64,000 nucleotides of DNA from Catajapyx aquilonaris (lineage: Eukaryota), in NCBI GenBank assembly GCA_000934665.2, contig KZ538289.1:62001-126000 (forward strand), written 5' to 3'. The notes under the pieces were generated by a model. That model searched no databases. It saw nothing but the letters and a program-made list of their open reading frames with translations, and was not told the DNA's origin. Position 1 is the first letter of the stretch; each line of letters begins with the position of its first letter. This document shows positions 17,085 through 43,760 of the stretch, one piece after another. The translations under genes were made by a program, and so were the position numbers.

Positions 17085-17935
17085 CTAGTAAGGCCTCCAG
17101 ACGGAGGCGTCGGAGTGAGTCCTCCCTGGCACATGCCCCAACGCCCCGAGGCGCTGCGTGGTAGTCTGCTGCGGACTGGGGTCATCGGGGCTCTGGGGCG
17201 CGTGTCCGGAAGGGTTACCGGTCAGGGAGGGTAGCACCGACCGGGAGAGGTTGCCCCCCGTCCCACCTCCGCCTCCAAGAAGGTCAGCCGCGGATGAGGA
17301 TGACCTCTGGTTGATCTGCTCCATGGCACTCTGTAGCTCCGACCCGTGGAGATGGATCTGGTTCTGGCTGACACTGGAGTAGAGCTGGGAGTAGAGGAGA
17401 GAGGCGGGCAGGACGGGGGTGCCCAGGTATAGACTGGTGGTGTTGGGTCCGGAGGCGGACGTGTAGCCCCCTTGGTGGTGGCCCATCAGGGAGAAGTTTG
17501 AGTTGGCTGTGGCGGCGGTACCGGCCAGCAAGGAAGAGACGCTGGTGGCCGTGCTCTGGTGCGCCGAGAGGGTGCCGCCGTGACCGGTGCCGCCCATGCC
17601 CACGCCGCTCCCACCCATACCGCCCATCCCGCCACTGTCCACTCGACTCACCCCGAGGCCAAAGTCAGAGCTGGAGTATCGCGGCACCAGCACGGCCGCG
17701 CTTCTGTCGGCCGAACCCGCTCCCGAGCCGCCGGACGATCCAGAGCCGCCCGAACCGGCGCCTGCCGTGGTGCCTCCGCCGCCTCCCGTTCCGCCTCCGC
17801 CTCCGCCGGACCCGCTCCCTCCGCTGCCTCCGCTGCCTCCCAGGGGGTCCATCTCCGCCTTCAGACGCGTCTCGCCCAGGCCGCCGCTGCCAAAGTCCGC
17901 TCCGCTGCCCGACGACCCCGTCGTGTCAGGGAGTA
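17085..17935 (-). CDS. Runx: Runx terminal coding exon 5 (Gly/Ser-rich region ending in VWRPY)
   Basis: Acceptor ccttccctgctttcag|, phase 1 (LLPDTTGSSG...), ends ...SDASVWRPY-TAG. VWRPY is the RUNX-specific Groucho/TLE recruitment motif. Exons sum to 355+114+150+216+851=1686 nt (561 aa plus stop). Confidence 0.95.
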
Positions 17936-18792
17936 CTGAAAGCAGGGAAGGCACACCGGGGCATGACACCACTGAATTTGACAGAACATGTCCGTAATGG
18001 ACAAGACAATTCCAGAGATGGTCTAGATGATGTGAATATTTGGCCTAAACTCCTTACTGTTCGCATACACGTCACACACACCTGTATGCATAATGTCTAC
18101 CCTACAAATTGAAAGTCAAATGCAACTCCTGACACCCACATGTCCGAAGCAGAAGACTTCGCCACAAAGCGAAATGATCCCTAACGTATCTTATAAATAG
18201 GGTCTCAACAATCAGAGTAAGGTAAACTGCGGTTGTTCCGTGGGACCCCCAACAGTGAGGCCAGCATATAAAAGGAGAGGAACAGAACGCACGAGCCTTT
18301 TTCTAGCGCTGGCTACCCATATCCCTTTCAGCGGTGAGTGCGGTTTTTTGAACATCAGGTTAATAATCCTCTCGAGACCGCTGCAGTCTCCTTTCGCTTG
18401 GGTCAAAATTGATCCGTTCTCGCTGGCAAATGACCCTAACTGGTTGCAGAGGACGGGGGAGGGAAATAGGGGAGAGGAGGGAGGAGAGAGAGGGAGGGAA
18501 AAAAAGGTGAATAGTCCGGAGTTTAGAGTGAAATGGGACCTTGCATTCGAGGTATTTTTCTCACTCGGCGACAGTTGGACACGAGTTTTTTGTGTGGATG
18601 ATTGCAGGTGTGTTGTATTTACAGTATGCGAAATGTATGGCGAAAACTTGATACGATGAAGTTTTCTACATATAAGCTGGTGTGGTATATGTAAAATAAA
18701 ATCTATTATCTTAAATGAATTATTTTTGCACAAATTATAAGGTTTCAAAAACATTGAAATATCGCCAAAATTTGCCAATGTTTTGAATGATG

Positions 18793-19483
18793 AAGTGCAT
18801 AACTATAAAGCATCAAAATCGGACCAAAATAACGTTTTGCATTTTCTAGCCATACAATCCGTTGAGCACAATTAAAATATCTCCATTTCTATTTCTATTT
18901 TTAATAAAAATTGTAAATGAACTATTTTGAATTATGAAACCTGTGAAGTTTGGACACAGCCTTGTTGGACAATTTATATTGAATTTTATTAACAAGCAAT
19001 AACTTATTGAACGTTTTAATAATTAAAAATTGTCAGACAACTAATTATTGTTTTGAATTATGAAACCTGTGAAGTTGGACACATCCCTATGTTGGACAAT
19101 TTCTTTAATAATTAAAAAGTTATATAGGTTAGCTCAAAACCTTCGTCATGAAATTTCCTATAAAATTTATGCTGTTACTTTTTAAATTTTAGCCATTTTT
19201 TAATTTATAAAAATAACCGCGGCCGCGCGCGAGCCCCCGGAAAAGGCTTCGCGACCCCAGGTTGGGAACCACTGGTTAGCTTGATATTTAATAAATCTCA
19301 ATAGAAATTGTCCAACATAGGGATGTGTCCAACATCACAGGTTTCATCATTCAAAATAGCTTATTGACAATTTTTATTTAAAAATATAAATGGCGATATT
19401 TTAATGTGCTTAACGGATTGTATGACTAGAAAATACAATACGTAATTTTGGACCGATTTTGATGATTTATAGTTATGCACTTC
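18793..19483. mobile_element. Long-armed inverted-repeat element with nested pieces, in Runx intron 4
   Basis: Arms gaagtgcataactataaa...ttttctagccatacaatccgtt / aacggattgtatgactagaaaa...tttatagttatgcacttc. Inner tgaaacctgtgaagttggacac arms. Central hAT-Charlie-like end GGTTGGGAACCACTG (19260-19274) with gttagct direct flanks. Confidence 0.8.
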
Positions 19484-21195: not shown

Positions 21196-21334
21196 CTGGA
21201 AAGAAATGGTTTAAAAACGGTTAAAATGTGGCAAAACTCGCAAAAGCTGCGTGCGCCATCTACTGATTTCATTTCCAACTTATTTCAGAGGCATTGTACA
21301 AATCTGTGCCTGTTACATTTATAATATTAAAATA

Positions 21335-21642
21335 CTCACAAGGGAACGACCAAGGTCGGTCGTCTCGGATTTGGTTGAAACTCGATTAATGGGTCACTCA
21401 TGTGCGATAGACACCGTGATGAAAGTCCTAGATGCCACTGTCCATCCGTTTCCGAGATATGAGTGACAGAAACATCCAAATTTTGGCCGCGCAGCCAAAA
21501 TTCGGGTTTTTTGGTGCTATCTCGGAAACGGCTGGACAGTGGCATCTAGGACTTTCACCATTGTGTCTATCGCACATGAGTGACCCATTAATCGAGTTTC
21601 AATCAAATCGGAGACAACCGACCTTGGTCGTTCCCTTGTCAG
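21335..21642. mobile_element. TA-flanked palindromic MITE in Runx intron 3
   Basis: CTCACAAGGGAACGACCAAGGTCGG / CCGACCTTGGTCGTTCCCTTGTCAG, ~125-bp arms, TA on both sides. Confidence 0.9.
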
Positions 21643-24600
21643 TATGACCGAGTATGGCCCGCATTCTGTGTCTGCGCAATGCAATGCTGGTGGATGGATT
21701 TACGAGCACAACTTATAGTTTATGACTAAAGTTGAAAAAATAATCCCTTTAACCTCTATACATGACATGATGGCAGTGTCCATGATCTTGAAACACATTA
21801 GCAGGTGATTAGCCAAACGCCATAGTGCCCCCCATGCCCATAGAGAGATTTGGGTTTTGCAGCAGACACACGCACGACCACTAGGTGCATCTTTGCCAGG
21901 AAGTTGATGACCGCTAAAGCACATAGAGTACACCGCTCTGATGGGGCCTTACAATAACGTATTCGCCAGAAAGGGTCGCAGGTGGGACATTACCCAGGCC
22001 ATTCAGCTTGGTGAAAACTGGTCTAAAGTGATGAAGGGGAGGATATTGTGGGCCAGTATCCGGTGCCCTCTAAACGCCAATGGCTTTGGGCTCAGGGGCC
22101 CATATAAACCAGTTGGTTGTGCGTGCCGTCCGGAAAATCCGCTTCGTGATCTTAAACCAAAAGATATCTCCGGCGCTAAAACTGTTCCCAGTCCATTGAG
22201 ACCTTTTAAGCCCCGACATAATACCAAAAGGAACGACGAGATCCTTTCCTGGCAATCATTGGGAGACCCACACAGCTATCGACCAAATGCGCGCGGTTTT
22301 CCCGGATTTTACCGCGCGTTCATTTTTGGACGCCCCCCTCCCCCCCTCCGAAACCTCGTGACATGGCAAAGCCGTAAAATCCTCCTAATATGCCATAAAA
22401 GAGGGAGACACCCTCATAGACTTAAAGTCATGCGCTATGTAATTAACCGCAACGAAGCTACGGTCAACGGGAGCAAAAATAAAATAAGCTGCCAAGGGCG
22501 TTATGCCTTTGGCCCTTCCACTTTTGTGCCTCCCATTTACATGACGGAACCTCCCGCAGCACCAGTAATTTTTCGCCGCCACGGCAGCGGATCTATTTCA
22601 ACAACCGCCCGGATGGGTGCTGCCTAGTCATCATTTTTTTTTCCCCCAGCCCTTTTTACCCCCCTACCCACACATACTCCACCTCTTGTCTCATTTTAGT
22701 TTCATGTGCGGAAATGGTATATTGTAATTATGCCCTGGGGGAGTTTGGGCTGGGACTAGGTCCTGAGGGCTGTTGACTGATTCGTATAGTGAAGTCACTC
22801 GTCAAGCGATGCCCAGAAGTGCTTTAGCAGTGTCCATTCGTTTTTGTCTGGTAGATATACGAGGGGGGGTCCATTCGTAATAAACGCGGGGACATGGCAA
22901 TAGATGAAAGTGCTCCCGGTGCGCCCTTATGAAATGGTGTTGCCGCAGGGCCTCTCCACTGGCTGTGGTGATGCGGTGCATTCAGGCAGGTAATGTAATT
23001 TAACATATTGTGAAAATAGTATTTCCAACCGGTGCATTATTTCCAACTGTTCTTGTGACGATATAAAGTTATCCCAAGCCGGTACCACAATTTCCTTGCC
23101 ATAAAAAACCAGGGTTAACCCCTCTTTAGAACGGAGCGTCACGAATCCTCTTTGTCCCTGGGTGTCGGCGCATACCAGTCCTTCCTTCAGGTTCTACCTG
23201 CGGCCAAACTCATATAGAAAAGGGTCTGGCCATTGAAGAGGGACCCTATGGCACGTCGCAGGGGGTTCGTGACGATATGACATCGACATTGGCTTCTCAA
23301 AATGGAAGAGAGAGGACCTCACTCCATGCCCAGCCACATGTTCGCCGCACTTTATATGGCACGCGAACCTCCTCAGCGGCTCGCAGTGATATAAAGCCCC
23401 CCAATTTCGATGAATTGTTGATAGAAGAGGTGGGGAGAGAAGCTATAGGATCATCCCTTCAATATTATTGAAGCGATTGTAAAAAAAAAGGTACTTGAGG
23501 TTAATATTCACCTTGCTAGAGTGCGTGCAATTTGTTGTTTAAAACTTTTCATGACGTAATGCGCATTACTTTGAAAATTAGCTACTGTAACAGCGAAAGC
23601 TGGAATCGGATGCAGCATCCATGTTGCGAGACGAAAGCAGCTCGAGTCGTAAGTGGGCCTCCGCTGGAGTTTCCATAACAATGTGGGCTTGCTAACAATG
23701 TCGTATGCCAAGTGATGGCGAGAACACGTCATTCCTCCCCGTCGTTAGGCATATTTCGCGGTGACCGCAAAAGTTGTAGAGGCGCGCAAAGCAAGGCTTA
23801 CCCCCGAAAGCGCCAGTTAGTATGCAGAACAGACTACTAGGGGCATGAGGGGGGGAAAGGGGGTGAAATGGCGGCAAAAGGAGTGCCCCCCTTCCTCCCC
23901 AGTCCTCCCTCTTTATGGATTATTTAACCAAAATGAAAAGTTGGCCATTTCGTTTCGGTTGGCGCCTCTGATGGCTAATTGCCGTGTGGCCCGTCGGGAC
24001 CGGAAGCGACGGGCCTCTTTATAGCCTCAGTTTGTAGCCCCTACTCCACTGAGGCAGCCATCTTGCACTATGCCACCCTATCAGGTCAGCCATGACACTT
24101 TAGGGCAAAAATTGAATTTTTCTGTCGTTCATATCTGTTATAATAAATAATAAATCATGTAAATGACACTCGGCCATCTTGCAACGTGGCCATCTTTGCG
24201 TAATGGCAGCGTGTCCTGGCATCTTTGATCAGGTCGTGCTTTGCAAGGCAAGCCCCGGCGATTTCCCTCAATCAATCAGCCGCCATGGAAGGGAAATGAG
24301 AGCCGTTTCCGCCGAGAGGTCAACCACGGCGAAACAGGGCCGACCGCCAGCACGCCGCCGGTGGACCAACCCCCCATTTATGTCTGCTGCCCAGCAGGAT
24401 GACCTGTCCCGACAGGTTATTAACAACCTCCTAAGGACACAATACCAGTGTTTATTATACCGTACCAAAACCCCCCCTGCGTGCGTCGTGTGCTGAGGTA
24501 TTGAATGCGGATATGGTTGGGACATCTACCCAATATCGGCTAAATGTGGTGATACGCGGAGACGACCATCATGTGGTGACATCCTTAGGTTACGGTAGTG

Positions 24601-24779
24601 TCGGTAAAATATGCTCGGTTGCATGCTGGGGTTGTATTTTTATGAAGGCCTTTTCCAAGCCTCCGAGCTGAGCTAACATTACACGGTAAGAATAATTTAT
24701 AGGTAGTTACAATCGATGTTCTTTTCTCTAGCGAGTATGTTCCTGCATAGTCGCTGTTTCTAGGAAAATTGCTATAAAA

Positions 24780-25316
24780 TGTGAGGTAAATTTTTGTGAA
24801 AGGTACGAATTTGTGCAAGGGAAGAATTTGCTAAAGGTACGAATTTGTGAACGGTACTGTGAAAGGTACGAATTTGTGAAAGGTAAGAATTTGTGCAAGG
24901 GAAGAATTTGTTAAAGGTACGAATTTGTGAAAGGTACGAATTTGTGAAAGGTACGAATTTGTGAAAGGTACGAATTTGTGAAAGGTACTGTGAAAGGTAC
25001 GAATTTGTGAAAGGTAAGAATTTGTGCAAGGGAAGAATTTGTGAAAGGTACGAATTTGTGAAAGGTACGAATTTGTGAAAGGTACTGTGAAAGGTACGAA
25101 TTTGTGAAAGGTACTGTGAAAGGTAAGAATTTGTGAAAGGTAAGAATTTGTGAAAAGTACGAATTTGATAAAGGTACGAATTTGTGAAAGGTACGAATTT
25201 GTTAAAGGTACGAATTTGTTAAAGGTACGAATTTGTTAAAGGTACGAATTTGTTAAAGGTACGAATTTGTTAAAGGTACGAATTTGTGAAAGGTACAATT
25301 GGCGCCCAACGTGGGG
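24780..25316 (+). mobile_element. LTR-like unit made of a 17-bp tandem array followed by a tRNA-Lys primer-binding site
   Basis: About 30 units of TGTGAAAGGTACGAATT and variants (24795-25297), bounded TGT (24780) ... ACA (25297). After a 2-nt spacer comes TGGCGCCCAACGTGGGG (25300-25316), the complement of the 3' end of tRNA-Lys(CUU) including CCA. Confidence 0.6.
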
Positions 25317-26439
25317 TGTGAAGGAAATGTTTACAAACGTCTATTAATGTACTTTTTTAACAAATTTACCCCAGCTTTTGTGTATCACCGGGTGTTCCAT
25401 ATCTACCTGGCCTGTCCGCTGTAAGCTGGTTGACACCAACCGAGAGCCAATTTTTGGGCTGATTGTGTGCGGATAAAAACAACGCGACATATTCCTTCTG
25501 AATAATGAAAGGCTTGCGGACAGCTTCAATTACCGTATATTGTTCTGGAACGCTCGGAATAACAGTAGTTAGCACCGATCCATGAACCGGGGCTATAATC
25601 AAGACAAACCTAACAGCTGGCAATGCCCCCCCCCCNCCCCCCCCCCACCCACCCTCCATGTATACAAATTACCTACACACGAGCCTACACTTCGGGATAA
25701 CATGTTGAAAACAGGAAACATTTAAAACCCGGGCTGAGCAGTGGGTGATCACAGGTCCCGGATAATTTAACCGCTGTCCACCTTTTTTTTTGTGTGTAAA
25801 ACCCTGTGTCGGAGGGAGGGCCGTAATTATCATAATATCCTGATAGCCATCATGGGCAGGGGTACACACTTAGTATTGGAAAGCCACTTTTACACCAAGG
25901 AAACTAGCAATTTATGTCAGGTATAAGATACACGACATCCTTTCCGGAAATTACATCATATCCTAAAAATTTGTATGCAAATTATTCCAGTTTCAAGCAC
26001 AATAAAATATGCATTTTATGGACACATCAACTTTTGAAGATAGTTTTTGGACCCGGTTTTAACATGGTGCAAGTTTAGGTCCCTGTGTACCTCCCTAGTC
26101 CTTGATTCAAAATTTATTAATTAATGCAGAATTAATATCTTGGAGCCTACCGCAGACACTTTTCTTGTGTCGCAAACTTCTGCAGGCATTAAAGTTTCAA
26201 TGGTCTGTTGAAGGTAGACACGTTATCTCATCTAATGATTTTCTCATGAGAGGAACAACGAATATCTGCAGTAGGAACGAGGATTATGATTATTATGTAT
26301 ATTTTTATCTTCCAGTTTTTTTTTCCTCACCACTTTTCTGCACCATTCTGGTCCTGTCAAACTATTAGTATGGGAGGCTACATCCAGAACTGTCAAAACA
26401 AGCCCAGGGTAATCGAATAGTTTGTTGCTCAGGGATCGG

Positions 26440-26509: not shown

Positions 26510-29278
26510 TCTTTTGTGCAGAAAATTTAACGAGTTTCCTGTTTTTTGAAAATAAAAAATTCGAATCCCTCCCGAATTTTTGATTATGCACGAAGGCCGT
26601 CTGCTTGAGCATGTCAGAATTGAATGTTTGTCTGCGGAATTTGTCTGTTAGTTCCATCTGTGGATTGGACAGCAGTGATTAATGGGTCCTTTCCAACCCT
26701 CCAGATTTTATACAGTAAGCAACATTTCGGTTGGACACACCCAAAAAAAAACTATTTTTTTGTTTTGTGGTTTTCGTCGCATCCGACGGACATGGAGGAA
26801 GAGACTGGGGGAAAAAATTGTCAAGCTTTGGCGAAGAGTTTTTTTTGAGTAGAAATTGTATGTTTCATTTCAAAAATGCGAGGGTTTTGTCAAATAAGAT
26901 TGACAGCTTTGGATTCTGGTAAACAACTGCAGGTGAAGTAAACAATATGCAAAAATGTCCGGTAATGCATGATAGCAATTTGATAAAAATAACTCCAAAA
27001 TTATTCATCAGTTATATGAATACCGTAGTCACAATGTAATATTCAAAAGGTTTAAACTTTAATCGATATTTAAAACTTTCCATTATATTATTTTCATAGC
27101 CTCTCGAACGGATAATCCACGAAGCGCATTTGACTACAGTGATTTTTACAGGTGCTGGAATTAAGCTATTCAAGTTATGTGATATAATTAGGAGATTTGA
27201 GTGGGAATTAAGTACTGTACTGATGGTGAGCATTATCCAATCAAAGCCGTATGCACTGGAAAAAGGGGGGCCCCCCAACACATGTAAATCCCCAAACCCT
27301 GCTGTTTCATCCATATGCAGTAATGTTACACCTGCTCTCCAGCAATCCTCGTTGCACGTACCAAACACACGTAAAAAAGTGGCTCGAGTGCTTAATGTCG
27401 AGAATTTCAAATGTATGTGGGTATGGCCCCCACATCCCGAAATCCAACACCTCTTGTTGATCAGATCCGATCCTCCGTGTCGTATTGCCCCCACCAAAAA
27501 GTGTCTATTGGAGCGAGTGGTCGTAATGCTCATCAGTCGAACAATCGTCATGTGTTTGGTCGCACTTGTTCGGCTCTTCCGAAAAAAAATCGGTCTCAAC
27601 TTTGCCCACAATGAGTCCAAAAACATTTCGTCCAAACAAAATTCGCCCGAAGTCAGTGGGTCCAATCAAAACTCTCCTAAACGCACTCTGGCCTATCAGA
27701 ATGCTCCTAAAGGTACTCTGGGCTTTCATAACACTATGCAACACGATATTTGTCCATGGAAATTCATCTTCGTGTTCCTTAGGTCACAAGTAACCCGTAA
27801 TAATGGGCATTCATTTTGTTTTTGATTTGTTTTTGACCTCGGGGCAGGCAAAACACCAAAATCGTCAAATACAGCAGTATTTTTCCCAATCAAGTGGGCC
27901 TAAATGCTGCTAGACCATCTCGGATTTTTCTGAAAATAATCACAGCTGTACACACCTATACCGTAACACTGCATATCAAGTTTCAGCCAAATTGCGAAAT
28001 ACCGTGGGGAGGGGAAAAATCGCGAAATTTTGAAAATGGGGGCTTTTTTGGATATTTTTCTCGGTTATTGGAAGTGGTGAAGACCCAACATCTGCCGTCA
28101 GATGTGAGAGGACCGTAACTCATTATCCACTTCCCTTGCTGCGAGAAAAGAAAGCAAGTGTTACCGAAAGCATCCAAGAGGTGGCGTTGGGGGAAGGGGG
28201 GAAAAAGGAACGGCCATCCCAACTGCACCTGTTGGGTGATTTTGGTACCACTGCTTTTTTTTCTCGCCGCAAGGGGAAGTGGACATTGAGTTACGGTCTT
28301 CTCATATCTGACGGCAGACATATGCATCAAATGAAAGAGAAACGCATATAATGCGCCTGTGGAATTTGTTTTTCTGTAAAATGCACTCAGAAAAACACAT
28401 GTGGCCCAATGAAAATTAGCTCGAAGGCAATTCGTCCAATCAGAATGCTCCTAAAAAAACACTCTGGCCAATCAGAACTCTCCTAAAGACACTCTGTCCA
28501 ATCAAAACTTCCCAAAGAATTTTCGTCCAATTCGCCATCGTCACTGGAACCAAGTGTTACAATATCCCTCAAAAAATAGTTCCGTATCTGAAGTGGGCAG
28601 GTCCAGTCAGGCAAGTTGAAACCGAGGTCTGCACGCAAGTTTCACGGCTCAACTTGCGGGCCTTTCTCCGCAAAACGGGTCTTCCATCATAGGGCTGTCC
28701 CGCGCTGGTGGGACCCGCACCGCAAAGTGACAGCCACCATTGTGGAGATTGGTGGGGGGTTAGGAGCCCGTTAGATATTGCGTTTATGAGTGCCGGGAGC
28801 ACTAAGAAAAATGAGCGGCACTTTGTACCCGACAACTGAATGGATTGGAATTCGATGGCGCCTCTCCATCAGCATGGGGAGAGAGGGAGGGTTTTTGGAA
28901 CCTCCCTCTCTGTAAAACCCAACATAGGATCGGCTCTGGCGCCTGCATGTGTGTGTGTGCTCCATGGCGCCTCGTTTATGCTCGGTACTCCCGGATATAT
29001 GCGACGCACTTTTCTCCGACAGGACCAGGCACGTTCAAGCGTGATCCTGAATGGAACAGCTTCAATTTTCGGAAGCGCGGACTTTCAAGCTGAACTACCA
29101 AAAAGTTGCACAGTGCTGGACGTTAATGGTGTCGTACTTGTGGCGCCACGATCCGATGGCGGCAAAAGAGTTAATCAAAATTTGCTTCCGTATGACTACC
29201 TTCACTTGATCATAAATCATAACTGGAGGCAAATTTCGTGGCGTCACACAGTACGATACCATGGCCAGCATCCCTGTA

Positions 29279-29890
29279 CAGTGTTGGTCATTAATCGCGG
29301 CATACTGCTTGCGACACTTCCCGGTGCGGCAGAAGTGCAAATCGAAGTGATAGAGTACGAGCCGTGCGAATCAGACGTCACCGGCTGGGGGTCAATGGAG
29401 AAAAGGCTTGCAGCTCTCACCCAAGGGCTACCATTTCTTACTTACACGGCTCGCACCATGATCTTAGAATACTAAGGTCTGGACACTCCCTCTTATCGCT
29501 TGCCGGGGCGTTTTGCATGAGGTGCTCACTTGAGAGCGCCATCGCCGCCATGAGACTACCGGACTGCGCTGAACTAAGGTAGAAGAGAAGCCGCTACATG
29601 CGGGCCCAATGGCCGCGCCGGCGACCATGTTGGGTCCCCCAATGTAGCGCTTCCCTTTTGTACCTATAAAGTTCATCGTAGTCCGGTAGGGTCGCCACAT
29701 AATAGCACAATGAAAAGCTGTCTCATGGCGCTCTCAGGTGAGCACCTAATGCAAAACGTCCCGGCAGGCGATAAGATAAGATTGTAGGGGAAGTGTCCGG
29801 GGGCTGGCTCGCACTCTATCACTTCGATTTGCACGTCTGACGCATCGGAAAATGTCTCTAGCAATATGATGGAATTAATGTCCAGCACTG
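29279..29890. mobile_element. TA-flanked MITE (family of 13530-14056) with a nested inverted-repeat element at 29481-29798
   Basis: CAGTGTTGGTCATTAAT ... ATTAATGTCCAGCACTG-TA. Inner arms tcttatcgcttgccggggcgttttgcat / atgcaaaacgtcccggcaggcgataaga. Confidence 0.78.
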
Positions 29891-30635
29891 TACGACTCTG
29901 AGTAAAAGAAGTCGTCAGGTGGCAACAGTGAGGAAAACACCACAAGTGAATGCGAATCAAGATGATGTTTTCGCATAGTGATCGTTTAAAAATTCAGTGC
30001 CTTCAGAGCGAATTTGAGACACTAATGGAGTCAGGCTACATAGCCTAGGCTCTGAGAGCCTCGTTAGTCCTCATCCAGTGAGAGTATATACTGAGAGAGG
30101 AGGGGTGTTGGGAGATTCTCATTCTGTCAGCTCGGAGGAGGCAAAATGTCTCCCGGATCCTCCTGGAAATTGATGAGGAGGCCCCGAACACAAACGCACT
30201 CTCTCTCCAGTTTCACCTAACCCCTCACCTCATTAAGATCACAAACACTTGCAAGCTTGATAATGGTGAACCTCAATTAAAACTATAGCAGCGAGAGCTC
30301 CCCGATCGGACAATTCTCAGCCCGCGATAGTTAGCAGCGTCGTCTAATCGATAGTTATTACTCTTAGAGTCGAGATGAGACAGGTTCTCTCTCTCCCCCC
30401 CCCCCCATCCCAACCCTTCTCTTGTCTTCCTCTGCCATCGGCTTGGAAGCTGTACAATCTGTGGCGGCAGATGGGTGCGGATAAAGACGCTTGCTGGCTT
30501 TCTGTGCGGAAACTGTTCCATCACCCTAAATGGTACCCTTGGTTTACCCACCATGGTCTGAGACCACCACGGATAGTCTTATTTCCAACTCGTTTGATGT
30601 ATTTCCAACCGGCAACACCTGCGCGTGATACTCAC

Positions 30636-42000: not shown

Positions 42001-42827
42001 ATAGACTAGGTAATAATGAAGTGGAAAGTATGTGGAATATGATATTTCGCTCTAGTTTTTTTTTTTTTTCCCAGCTCTCTAACTCGCTTTTCCCCACCAC
42101 CGCCACCCAGCGACCAGAACCATCCCCTGTTCTTTTCATTTGCAGAATCCGGAGATTAATTTACTGTTTACACATTCAATATATCCCTAGCCCTTGCCCC
42201 CCTACCCCCGCCGGCGCTTTTTCTCATATTATATGGATGGGGATCATGAGGGAATGTAAGCATGTGTGCCTTGTGTGCATGTGTGGAGAGATGTTGCCTC
42301 CGCTTTTTTTCCACCCCTCAGATAATAATTCTGGCATATATACAGTGTTGACAATCTGCAGGTTTTTACACACTCGGTTTTTACTATATAACTAGGCTCA
42401 TACGGGATTGTAGATGAATTGTAATTTGCGCAATATTTAGGCTGATCCACGCGATTTCGTGGATTCACGAATTCGGTGCTTCGCGGGGATTCTCGAATTC
42501 GATGCTTCGCGCTATTTCGGGGATTCTCGAAATTCGTTGCTTCGCGGAACTGCAGATTTTCTGATTGTCGATTCACCTGGTGAAATATCGTAAACTTTAA
42601 GAAGTGACCCGTTTTTCAGTGCAATTGGCGAATTTTGGCGCGAGTGCATCTTTGGCAAGTGAGGCCGTATATTTCGGGCCGGGGGTTCTTTTCCGGCCGG
42701 CACACCACCGACGTCTCCCCAATCCAGACCTGGTGCCTGCCATCCAGCCACTCACTTGGCTCCTCCTGAGTAGCACCCCCTGCGTTTTTCCACCCCCTCA
42801 CCCACCCACCCACCCCGCCTCCCCCTA

Positions 42828-43760
<933 letters not shown>

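What the first reader, a model, noticed from the sequence alone, without database searches (positions are those of the whole stretch)
24780..25316. Satellite-built LTR-like unit abutting a tRNA-Lys primer-binding site
Seen: ~500 bp of 17-bp tandem units with 12-bp and higher-order variants, starting TGT and ending ACA, then AT, then TGGCGCCCAACGTGGGG. Established: this is 17 of the 18 nt of the tRNA-Lys1,2 PBS (TGGCGCCCAACGTGGGGC). It includes the complement of CCA, which eukaryotic tRNA genes do not encode. This geometry is that of an LTR-PBS junction, and Drosophila gypsy is tRNA-Lys primed. No gag/pol ORF, clear polypurine tract or second LTR is visible. Inference: a minimal non-autonomous retroelement whose strong-stop DNA is pure repeat, so RT template slippage or switching could expand and disperse the satellite (a tRNA-primed satellite). 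Alternatively an array expanded in, or replaced, a decayed LTR.
Basis: partly seen in the sequence, partly recalled or inferred. Interest (0 to 1): 0.72.

Follow-up and report, generated by a model that had tools for sequence, protein, structure and literature searches.

The report
Retrotransposon primer scar beside local minisatellite
A 500-base tandem repeat found at only one place in this animal genome ends in a real copy of the lysine-tRNA priming site used by resident retrotransposons, so it is most likely a dead scrap of retrotransposon DNA beside a locally grown repeat, not a satellite that spreads by reverse transcription.

Summary
In detail: 31 units (17/12 nt) end in ACA-AT, then 17 of 18 nt complementary to this genome's tRNA-Lys(CTT) plus CCA. 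The 'tRNA-primed satellite' reading meets its own refutation test. The unit occurs only here (20 of 20 and 19 of 19 hits), and 1 of 67 PBS loci has a non-PBS array against the PBS (chance expectation 0.13-0.66). No second LTR, pol remnant, polyadenylation signal or convincing TSD. The PBS belongs to a genome-wide class: 21 loci of multi-copy LTR families (one with identical LTRs and RT-RNaseH-integrase) and 46 'orphans', 33 with ACA+1-3 nt before the PBS, 11 reading on into the tRNA (9 mismatched opposite A58), 16 stopping at 17 nt like this one. Best reading (0.65): a dead-end plus-strand strong-stop-type cDNA end lodged in a probable Runx intron, with a minisatellite grown by ordinary chromosomal slippage. 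Which came first is unresolved. The scan noted this PBS-fossil class before on other DNA of this genome.

The parts
24780..24794 (+). Degenerate left-edge unit of the array (15 nt, starts TGT)
   Evidence: resembles 25317-25332 at 13 of 16 positions
24795..25284 (+). Single-locus minisatellite: 30 units (26 x 17 nt, 4 x 12 nt) with nested variants and higher-order blocks
   Evidence: all genome hits of the unit lie here
25285..25297 (+). Last unit, ending ACA: the inferred LTR (U5) right end
   Evidence: ACA+1-3 nt precedes the PBS in 33 of 46 orphan loci against 5% background
25298..25299 (+). 2-nt spacer (AT) between the LTR-like end and the PBS
   Evidence: sequence; the same AT spacer in L007, L036, L037
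25300..25316 (+). Primer-binding site: 17 nt complementary to the 3' end of mature host tRNA-Lys(CUU), including CCA
   Evidence: 17-nt ends occur in 16 of 46 orphan and 0 of 21 family loci
25317..25335 (+). Unit-like tail (TGT...ACA, 19 nt): duplicated target sequence, right edge of the array, or a second mini-LTR end
   Evidence: best match is the locus's own left edge; no other PBS locus matches after correction
25349..25373 (-). Weak inverted similarity to the array's left end (inconclusive)
   Evidence: p about 0.02-0.03 uncorrected; 36 of 1262 background windows score as high; at, not above, the decoy threshold

Best explanation
A single-locus minisatellite ends in an LTR-type ACA, a 2-nt spacer and a 17-nt copy of the tRNA-Lys 3' end, which is likely the fossil end of a dead-end reverse-transcription intermediate of a resident Ty3/gypsy-type element rather than a mobile satellite. 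Shown: the junction, the host tRNA, resident tRNA-Lys-primed elements, a class of 46 orphan junctions, and the uniqueness of the array. Inferred steps: (1) plus-strand synthesis copied an LTR end and then the tRNA primer, stopping at or one base short of the methylated A58; (2) the second strand transfer failed and the fragment entered the chromosome, by repair at a break or by a one-ended integrase event, keeping only the last few LTR bases; (3) the near-repeat around the junction (AGGTA-AATT / AGGTAC-AATT, with unit-like sequence on both sides of the PBS) either seeded the array or offered the microhomology that caught the fragment at the end of an existing array; (4) the array grew by repeated chromosomal slippage or unequal exchange, as its nested variants show. 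It would not be copied by RT today.
For: Unit unique to this locus: 3 of 3, 20 of 20 and 19 of 19 hits; local counts in the window equal the genome counts. Junction unique. Resident donors exist: L101 has 231-bp LTRs at 100% identity, this PBS, and RT-RNaseH then integrase (best PDB match Ty3 RT, E 1e-51); L103, L104, L105 are two-LTR elements with 4-bp TSDs. Orphan class: ACA+1-3 nt in 33 of 46 against 5.4% background; 11 of 46 read on to at least tRNA nt 55, 9 of these with a non-T base opposite A58 whereas every gene copy has T; three hold a near-whole tRNA copy with CCA (match 75, 76, 68 nt); 17-nt ends in 16 of 46 orphans and 0 of 21 family loci. L051 is a direct model: 40 nt of a known family's LTR end plus the PBS, in unique flanks. 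These lengths match the known strong-stop products P1, P2 and P4 (PMC13191261, PMC8599865, passages). Capture of retrotransposon cDNA intermediates at breaks is shown in yeast (PMC11372161, passages).
Against: This locus itself has no read-through and no A58 mismatch, so its cDNA origin is inferred from the class. The 18th base is T before G, which could be a decayed CpG of an ordinary 18-nt PBS (3 of the 16 17-nt loci read TG there). No donor LTR ending like this one was found. No empty allele was seen (one sample only). The orphan/family split was made by hand, the 21 family loci are only a handful of families, and most orphans had only 1.4-2 kb of downstream sequence (a few 0.4-1.4 kb), so some may be 5' ends of longer elements. 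'ACA-AT' may be array-derived.
Confidence: 0.65

Rival explanations
1. The junction is the remnant of the 5' LTR and PBS of a once-complete integrated element; the array grew inside its U5 (or replaced the LTR) and the interior was deleted or has decayed beyond recognition.
For: Geometry is that of a 5' LTR/PBS; a TATAAA lies just left of the array; the T after the 17-mer could be CpG decay of base 18; the post-PBS 22 nt weakly resemble L016 and L054. Tandem repeats inside LTR elements are common (PMC3286476 passages).
Against: No pol remnant in the 64-kb window (best tblastn E 2.6); no repeat of the upstream sequence nearby or elsewhere; no AATAAA/ATTAAA within 900 nt upstream, whereas 7 of 7 family elements examined have one 77-97 nt before the PBS; the L016/L054 likeness is not significant over 66 comparisons. 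An intact PBS with a vanished interior needs a clean deletion.
Confidence: 0.19
2. It is an integrase-inserted micro-element (mini-LTR, PBS, mini-LTR) like L042, whose left mini-LTR later multiplied into the array.
For: TGT...ACA pieces of 13 and 19 nt flank the PBS. Such micro-elements with 4-bp TSDs exist here: L042 (ACCG), L005 (ACCA), L013 (ATTA). TSD-bounded sites: 6 of 55 against a decoy mean of 2.1 (p=0.014; this locus is one of the 6).
Against: The outer ends give AAAA against AACG, no TSD. The only TSD candidate is AATT, which precedes nearly every unit and so is cheap. No terminal inverted repeat of 6 nt or more.
Confidence: 0.11
3. It is a tRNA-primed satellite: a minimal non-autonomous retroelement whose strong-stop DNA is pure repeat, expanded and dispersed by RT slippage.
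For: The array is in phase with the LTR-like end and PBS; active-looking helper elements with the same primer exist; 6 of 67 loci have short arrays whose unit includes the PBS. A fragmented assembly (20,583 contigs) can miss arrays.
Against: No second copy of unit, junction or flanks; 0 of the other 66 PBS loci carry it; no second LTR, PPT or polyadenylation signal to allow strand transfer; nested variants differing by up to three substitutions and re-duplicated in blocks point to many rounds of turnover, not one RT pass (inference).
Confidence: 0.04
4. The array and the PBS touch by pure coincidence, with no mechanistic link.
For: An array end within 10 nt of a PBS is expected 0.66 times in 67 loci for any array and 0.13 times for arrays of 100 nt or more; 1 was seen.
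Against: The last unit itself supplies the ACA+spacer that typifies the class, by a one-base change seen in 0 of the 26 full units, and unit-like sequence resumes right after the PBS.
Confidence: 0.01

Closest known systems
Plus-strand strong-stop products of retroviral RT (P1-P5; PMC13191261 and PMC8599865, passages read) and Ty1 cDNA intermediates captured at double-strand breaks in yeast (PMC11372161, passages read)
   Same: LTR end joined to a tRNA-templated stretch that ends near A58, with minor products to nt 55 or the whole tRNA; such fragments can enter chromosomes. The orphan class here shows the same lengths.
   Different: Here they are germline fossils in an animal genome, some with 4-bp TSDs. 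This locus keeps at most a few LTR bases, stops at 17 nt and is fused to a minisatellite. The papers concern HIV/MLV and yeast Ty1.
Osvaldo-lineage Ty3/gypsy elements, including Culex cqgypsy_1 (PMC3286476, passages read)
   Same: PBS 'invariantly' tRNA-Lys, mostly 4-bp TSDs; cqgypsy_1 has CCA-bearing tRNA copies flanked by a 26-nt duplication of the LTR end, as in L042 and L032 here.
   Different: Osvaldo LTRs are 1-2 kb; the resident families have 230-300 bp LTRs, and their lineage was not placed on a tree. The finding's locus has no coding sequence or LTR pair.
TRIMs and tandem-array TRIMs (PMC6934838, passages read)
   Same: Tiny, non-coding, PBS next to a terminal repeat; prone to tandem arrays. 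The PBS-containing arrays at L011, L021, L110 look like this.
   Different: No pair of 100-250 bp terminal repeats, no PPT, single copy, and the PBS is outside the repeated unit.
Satellites derived from retrotransposon tandem repeats (PMC7004042, search listing only) and non-autonomous Culex LTR elements full of tandem repeats (PMC3286476, passages read)
   Same: A tandem array tied to LTR-element sequence.
   Different: In the Culex elements the arrays lie between two LTRs of a complete element; here the array is at one locus and not inside a complete element.

Membership tests
LTR retroelement 5' junction (LTR end + PBS) | PBS complementary to the 3' end of a host tRNA including CCA | tested here: met
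   17 of 18 nt; host tRNA-Lys(CTT) genes lack CCA
LTR retroelement 5' junction (LTR end + PBS) | CA end 1-3 nt before the PBS | tested here: met
   ACA-AT; class frequency 33 of 46 against 5.4%; could also be a unit variant
Non-autonomous LTR element / TRIM | Two terminal direct repeats (100-250 bp in TRIMs) | tested here: not met
   No second array or LTR in window or genome; only a 16-nt likeness after the PBS
Non-autonomous LTR element / TRIM | Polypurine tract before a 3' LTR | tested here: not met
   No 3' LTR to precede; none of the G-rich tracts seen before family 3' LTRs is visible at 25317-25400 (by eye)
Non-autonomous LTR element / TRIM | 4-6 bp target-site duplication | tested here: inconclusive
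   Outer ends AAAA/AACG; AATT candidate is part of the unit
Non-autonomous LTR element / TRIM | Dispersed copies | tested here: not met
   One locus
Autonomous Ty3/gypsy element | gag/pol with RT-RNaseH-integrase | tested here: not met
   No tblastn hit below E 2.6 in the window; met at L101 elsewhere in the genome
Captured plus-strand strong-stop cDNA | tRNA copy ending at or near A58, not followed by the element's own leader | tested here: met
   Ends at 17 nt; downstream shared with no other PBS locus
Captured plus-strand strong-stop cDNA | Proof of tRNA templating (read-through past A58 with a mismatch) | tested here: inconclusive
   No read-through at this locus; present at 11 of 46 orphans, 9 mismatched
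Captured plus-strand strong-stop cDNA | Upstream sequence traceable to a donor LTR; empty pre-insertion allele | tested here: inconclusive
   No donor found; contigs of the same sample show no empty site
Satellite DNA family | Long or multi-locus arrays | tested here: not met
   About 0.5 kb, one locus: a minisatellite
Osvaldo lineage (for the donor families) | RT phylogeny | not tested
   Only primer type and TSD length agree with PMC3286476

The most novel reading that the evidence does not exclude
In this genome the RT of tRNA-Lys-primed gypsy elements routinely stalls on its primer, jumps back onto the LTR end and leaves tiny integrated LTR-end/PBS concatemers; these built-in near-repeats are seeds of new minisatellites, and this locus is the one that has outgrown its seed to 31 units. 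Six further loci with PBS-containing arrays would be earlier stages.
Probability: 0.15. Interest if true: 0.55.

Novelty: new member of a known kind. Interest (0 to 1): 0.24.

Why it matters
As a single dead locus it matters little. Its value is as one of about 46 fossils of failed reverse transcription in one animal genome, which record where RT stops on its tRNA primer and that such fragments reach the germline. If the array is shown to have grown from the junction, it would be a dated example of a minisatellite born from a retroelement scar. The more striking idea, a satellite that copies itself by tRNA priming, has no support.

Tried and rejected
Dispersed satellite: searched with five patterns and one DNA query; only this locus, apart from one unrelated hit with a 3-nt spacer (L115, not examined). 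Chance PBS: rejected. Host tRNA gene or pseudogene: rejected, genes lack CCA and the match ends at 17 nt. Coding array: minus-strand open frames across the array are a by-product of the repeat; the one Pfam row has 0 significant stretches. Shared leader with L016/L054: not significant after 66 comparisons; a pattern search found no further family. Inverted copy at 25349-25373: inconclusive. Expression: no RNA holder listed. Literature: 7 searches; none of the listed titles or read passages describes a tRNA-primed satellite, but the library lacks most subscription papers and no supplements were read, so absence from print is not shown. That Drosophila gypsy is tRNA-Lys primed is recalled, not checked here.

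Full report
Observation. The sequence is as described. One search splits 24780-25316 into a 15-nt edge unit, 30 units (26 of 17 nt, 4 of 12 nt), a last 13-nt unit ending ACA, the spacer AT and the 17-mer at 25300-25316. TRF gives period 17, 31.1 copies, 84% matches. The 17-mer is the only exact match in the window, against a shuffle mean of 0.09 at three mismatches. It is complementary to this genome's tRNA-Lys(CTT) plus CCA: one search returned 26 hits, 19 without and 7 with the CCA complement; ARAGORN called tRNA-Lys(ctt) in 9 of the 10 CCA-less loci given to it (L095 is a broken copy), and none of the genes encodes CCA. Two things qualify the picture. ACA-AT-T equals the array unit minus one G. 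And the bases right after the PBS resemble the array's left edge (13 of 16; anchored p=0.0003, one of 4 self-comparisons; unanchored p=0.095).

Is the array a family? No. The junction 26-mer has 1 hit. The two-unit 34-mer has 3, the degenerate unit 20, and a 26-mer at up to 2 mismatches 19, all inside this array; the first two counts equal the local counts. The 1.8-kb region matches only itself. The assembly has 20,583 contigs and could hide arrays; read depth over the array was not measured.

Do PBS loci carry arrays? The 17-mer has 76 exact hits, 0 for the reversed control. All were fetched and reduce to 67 loci. TRF finds a non-PBS array against the PBS in 1 of 67, this one; 6 others (L008, L011, L021, L024, L039, L110) have 2-5 copy arrays whose unit contains the PBS. 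An array end within 10 nt is expected 0.66 times by chance, 0.13 for arrays of 100 nt or more, so adjacency alone is not significant.

What the PBS belongs to. By hand from the clustering, 21 loci are members of multi-copy families and 46 are orphans. Among the families, L101 has 231-bp LTRs at 100% identity and frames with RVT_1, RNaseH and integrase domains in Ty3/gypsy order (best PDB match Ty3 RT, E 1e-51); L102 has similar frames. L103, L104, L105, L107 have two LTRs about 2.6 kb apart and no pol frame on the PBS strand, three with 4-bp TSDs (ACCG, ACGT, ACCG). Osvaldo-lineage elements use tRNA-Lys and mostly 4-bp TSDs (PMC3286476, passages); the lineage here was not tested. Among the orphans, 33 of 46 have ACA plus 1-3 nt before the PBS (background 5.4%), and 11 continue into the tRNA to at least nt 55, 9 of them with C, G or A where all gene copies give T, opposite A58. 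Three hold near-whole tRNA copies. Sixteen end at 17 nt, as this locus does, against 0 of 21 family loci (the family loci are not independent). L051 holds 40 nt of a known family's LTR end plus the PBS in unique flanks. Some are bounded by 4-bp TSDs (L005, L013, L042; 6 of 55 sites against a decoy mean of 2.1, p=0.014; 3 of 55 against 0.7, p=0.026). Twelve of 46 have a direct or inverted copy of upstream sequence just after the PBS; this locus falls at, not above, that threshold. These lengths match the plus-strand strong-stop products described for retroviral RT, which stops before m1A58, with minor stops at 55/54 and full read-through (PMC8599865 and PMC13191261, passages). Insertion of retrotransposon cDNA intermediates at breaks is shown in yeast (PMC11372161, passages; bioRxiv 2024.03.07.583931, passages). 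That a mismatch opposite m1A58 marks RT read-through is recalled knowledge. Limit: most orphans had only 1.4-2 kb downstream, so some may be 5' ends of longer elements.

This locus. There is no pol remnant in the window (best E 2.6), no polyadenylation signal within 900 nt upstream (7 of 7 family elements have one at 77-97 nt), and no similarity to the 108 other loci beyond the PBS and its edges. No repeat pairs with the upstream region in 15-40 kb. No other PBS has the same LTR end. The outer ends give no TSD; an AATT candidate is part of the unit. Contigs of the same sample cover the junction and both flanks at similar depth with no joints or loose ends; they are not independent and show no empty allele. 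The locus lies between a minus-strand Runt-domain exon (42825-43403) and a minus-strand frame ending VWRPY (17085-18044; motif recalled as the Runx C-terminus), so probably in a Runx intron.

Mechanism. Best reading (0.65): a failed reverse-transcription product, LTR end plus tRNA copy, entered the chromosome and kept only its last LTR bases; the array is a local minisatellite that either grew from the near-repeat at the junction or caught the fragment by microhomology. The nested variants (one- and three-substitution forms, a 5-nt deletion form, re-duplicated in blocks) argue for many rounds of chromosomal turnover, not one RT pass; this is inference. Against: this locus has no read-through mark, no donor LTR was found, and base 18 may be CpG decay. 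Rivals: decayed 5' LTR (0.19), integrase-inserted micro-element (0.11), tRNA-primed satellite (0.04), coincidence (0.01).

Comparison and novelty. It works like nothing mobile today. It fails the TRIM tests for paired repeats, PPT and copies (definition from PMC6934838, passages) and the satellite-family test. CCA-bearing tRNA copies with an LTR-end duplication are already described in Culex cqgypsy_1, and tandem repeats inside non-autonomous LTR elements likewise. Earlier scan notes on other pieces of this genome report the same class of PBS fossils; my reading was entered before I saw them, and a word search for an array beside a PBS found nothing. Verdict: real, explained, a new member of a known kind; interest 0.24.

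Noticed in passing
L032 (G000:C1264:13417), L042 (G000:C1847:37265), L070 (G000:C11902:1391): Near-whole reverse copies of tRNA-Lys with CCA and a mismatch opposite A58 (G, A, C), each directly after an LTR-like end; L042 is a 21-nt mini-LTR, tRNA copy, repeat of the LTR end, bounded by ACCG on both sides.
   Followed up: partly
L005, L013, L036, L041 (PBS +18 to +24): tRNA match stops at 22 nt (before position 54) and is followed by CA, recreating an LTR-like end; L005 and L013 are bounded by 4-bp duplications, suggesting integrase can insert these fragments.
   Followed up: partly
L029, L041 (head to head), L036 (tail to tail): Inverted pairs of the PBS 11-17 nt apart; and perfect hairpins directly before the PBS in L015 (23-nt arms) and L017 (10-nt arms), as fold-back synthesis would give.
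   Followed up: partly
L008, L011, L021, L024, L039, L110: Tandem arrays of 24-55 nt whose unit contains the PBS; L011 and L110 are two copies of one locus with different unit numbers.
   Followed up: partly
L101 (G000:C3968:1459-7649): Young gypsy-type element with identical 231-bp LTRs in which pol starts about 540 nt after the PBS with no evident gag frame before it; GC-rich frames of unknown nature follow the integrase.
   Followed up: no
window 17085-18044 and 42825-43403 (minus strand): Exons of a Runx-family gene (Runt domain by Pfam; terminal frame ending VWRPY) flank the finding.
   Followed up: partly
window 28090-28318, 29276-29893, 18792-19483, 21332-21645: MITE-like fold-back elements; the first two have copies in L034 and L027.
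   Followed up: no
window 24757-24790: Two short contigs at about half depth, one with a single other letter, cover the array's left edge in each of three runs: possibly two alleles, both entering the array.
   Followed up: no
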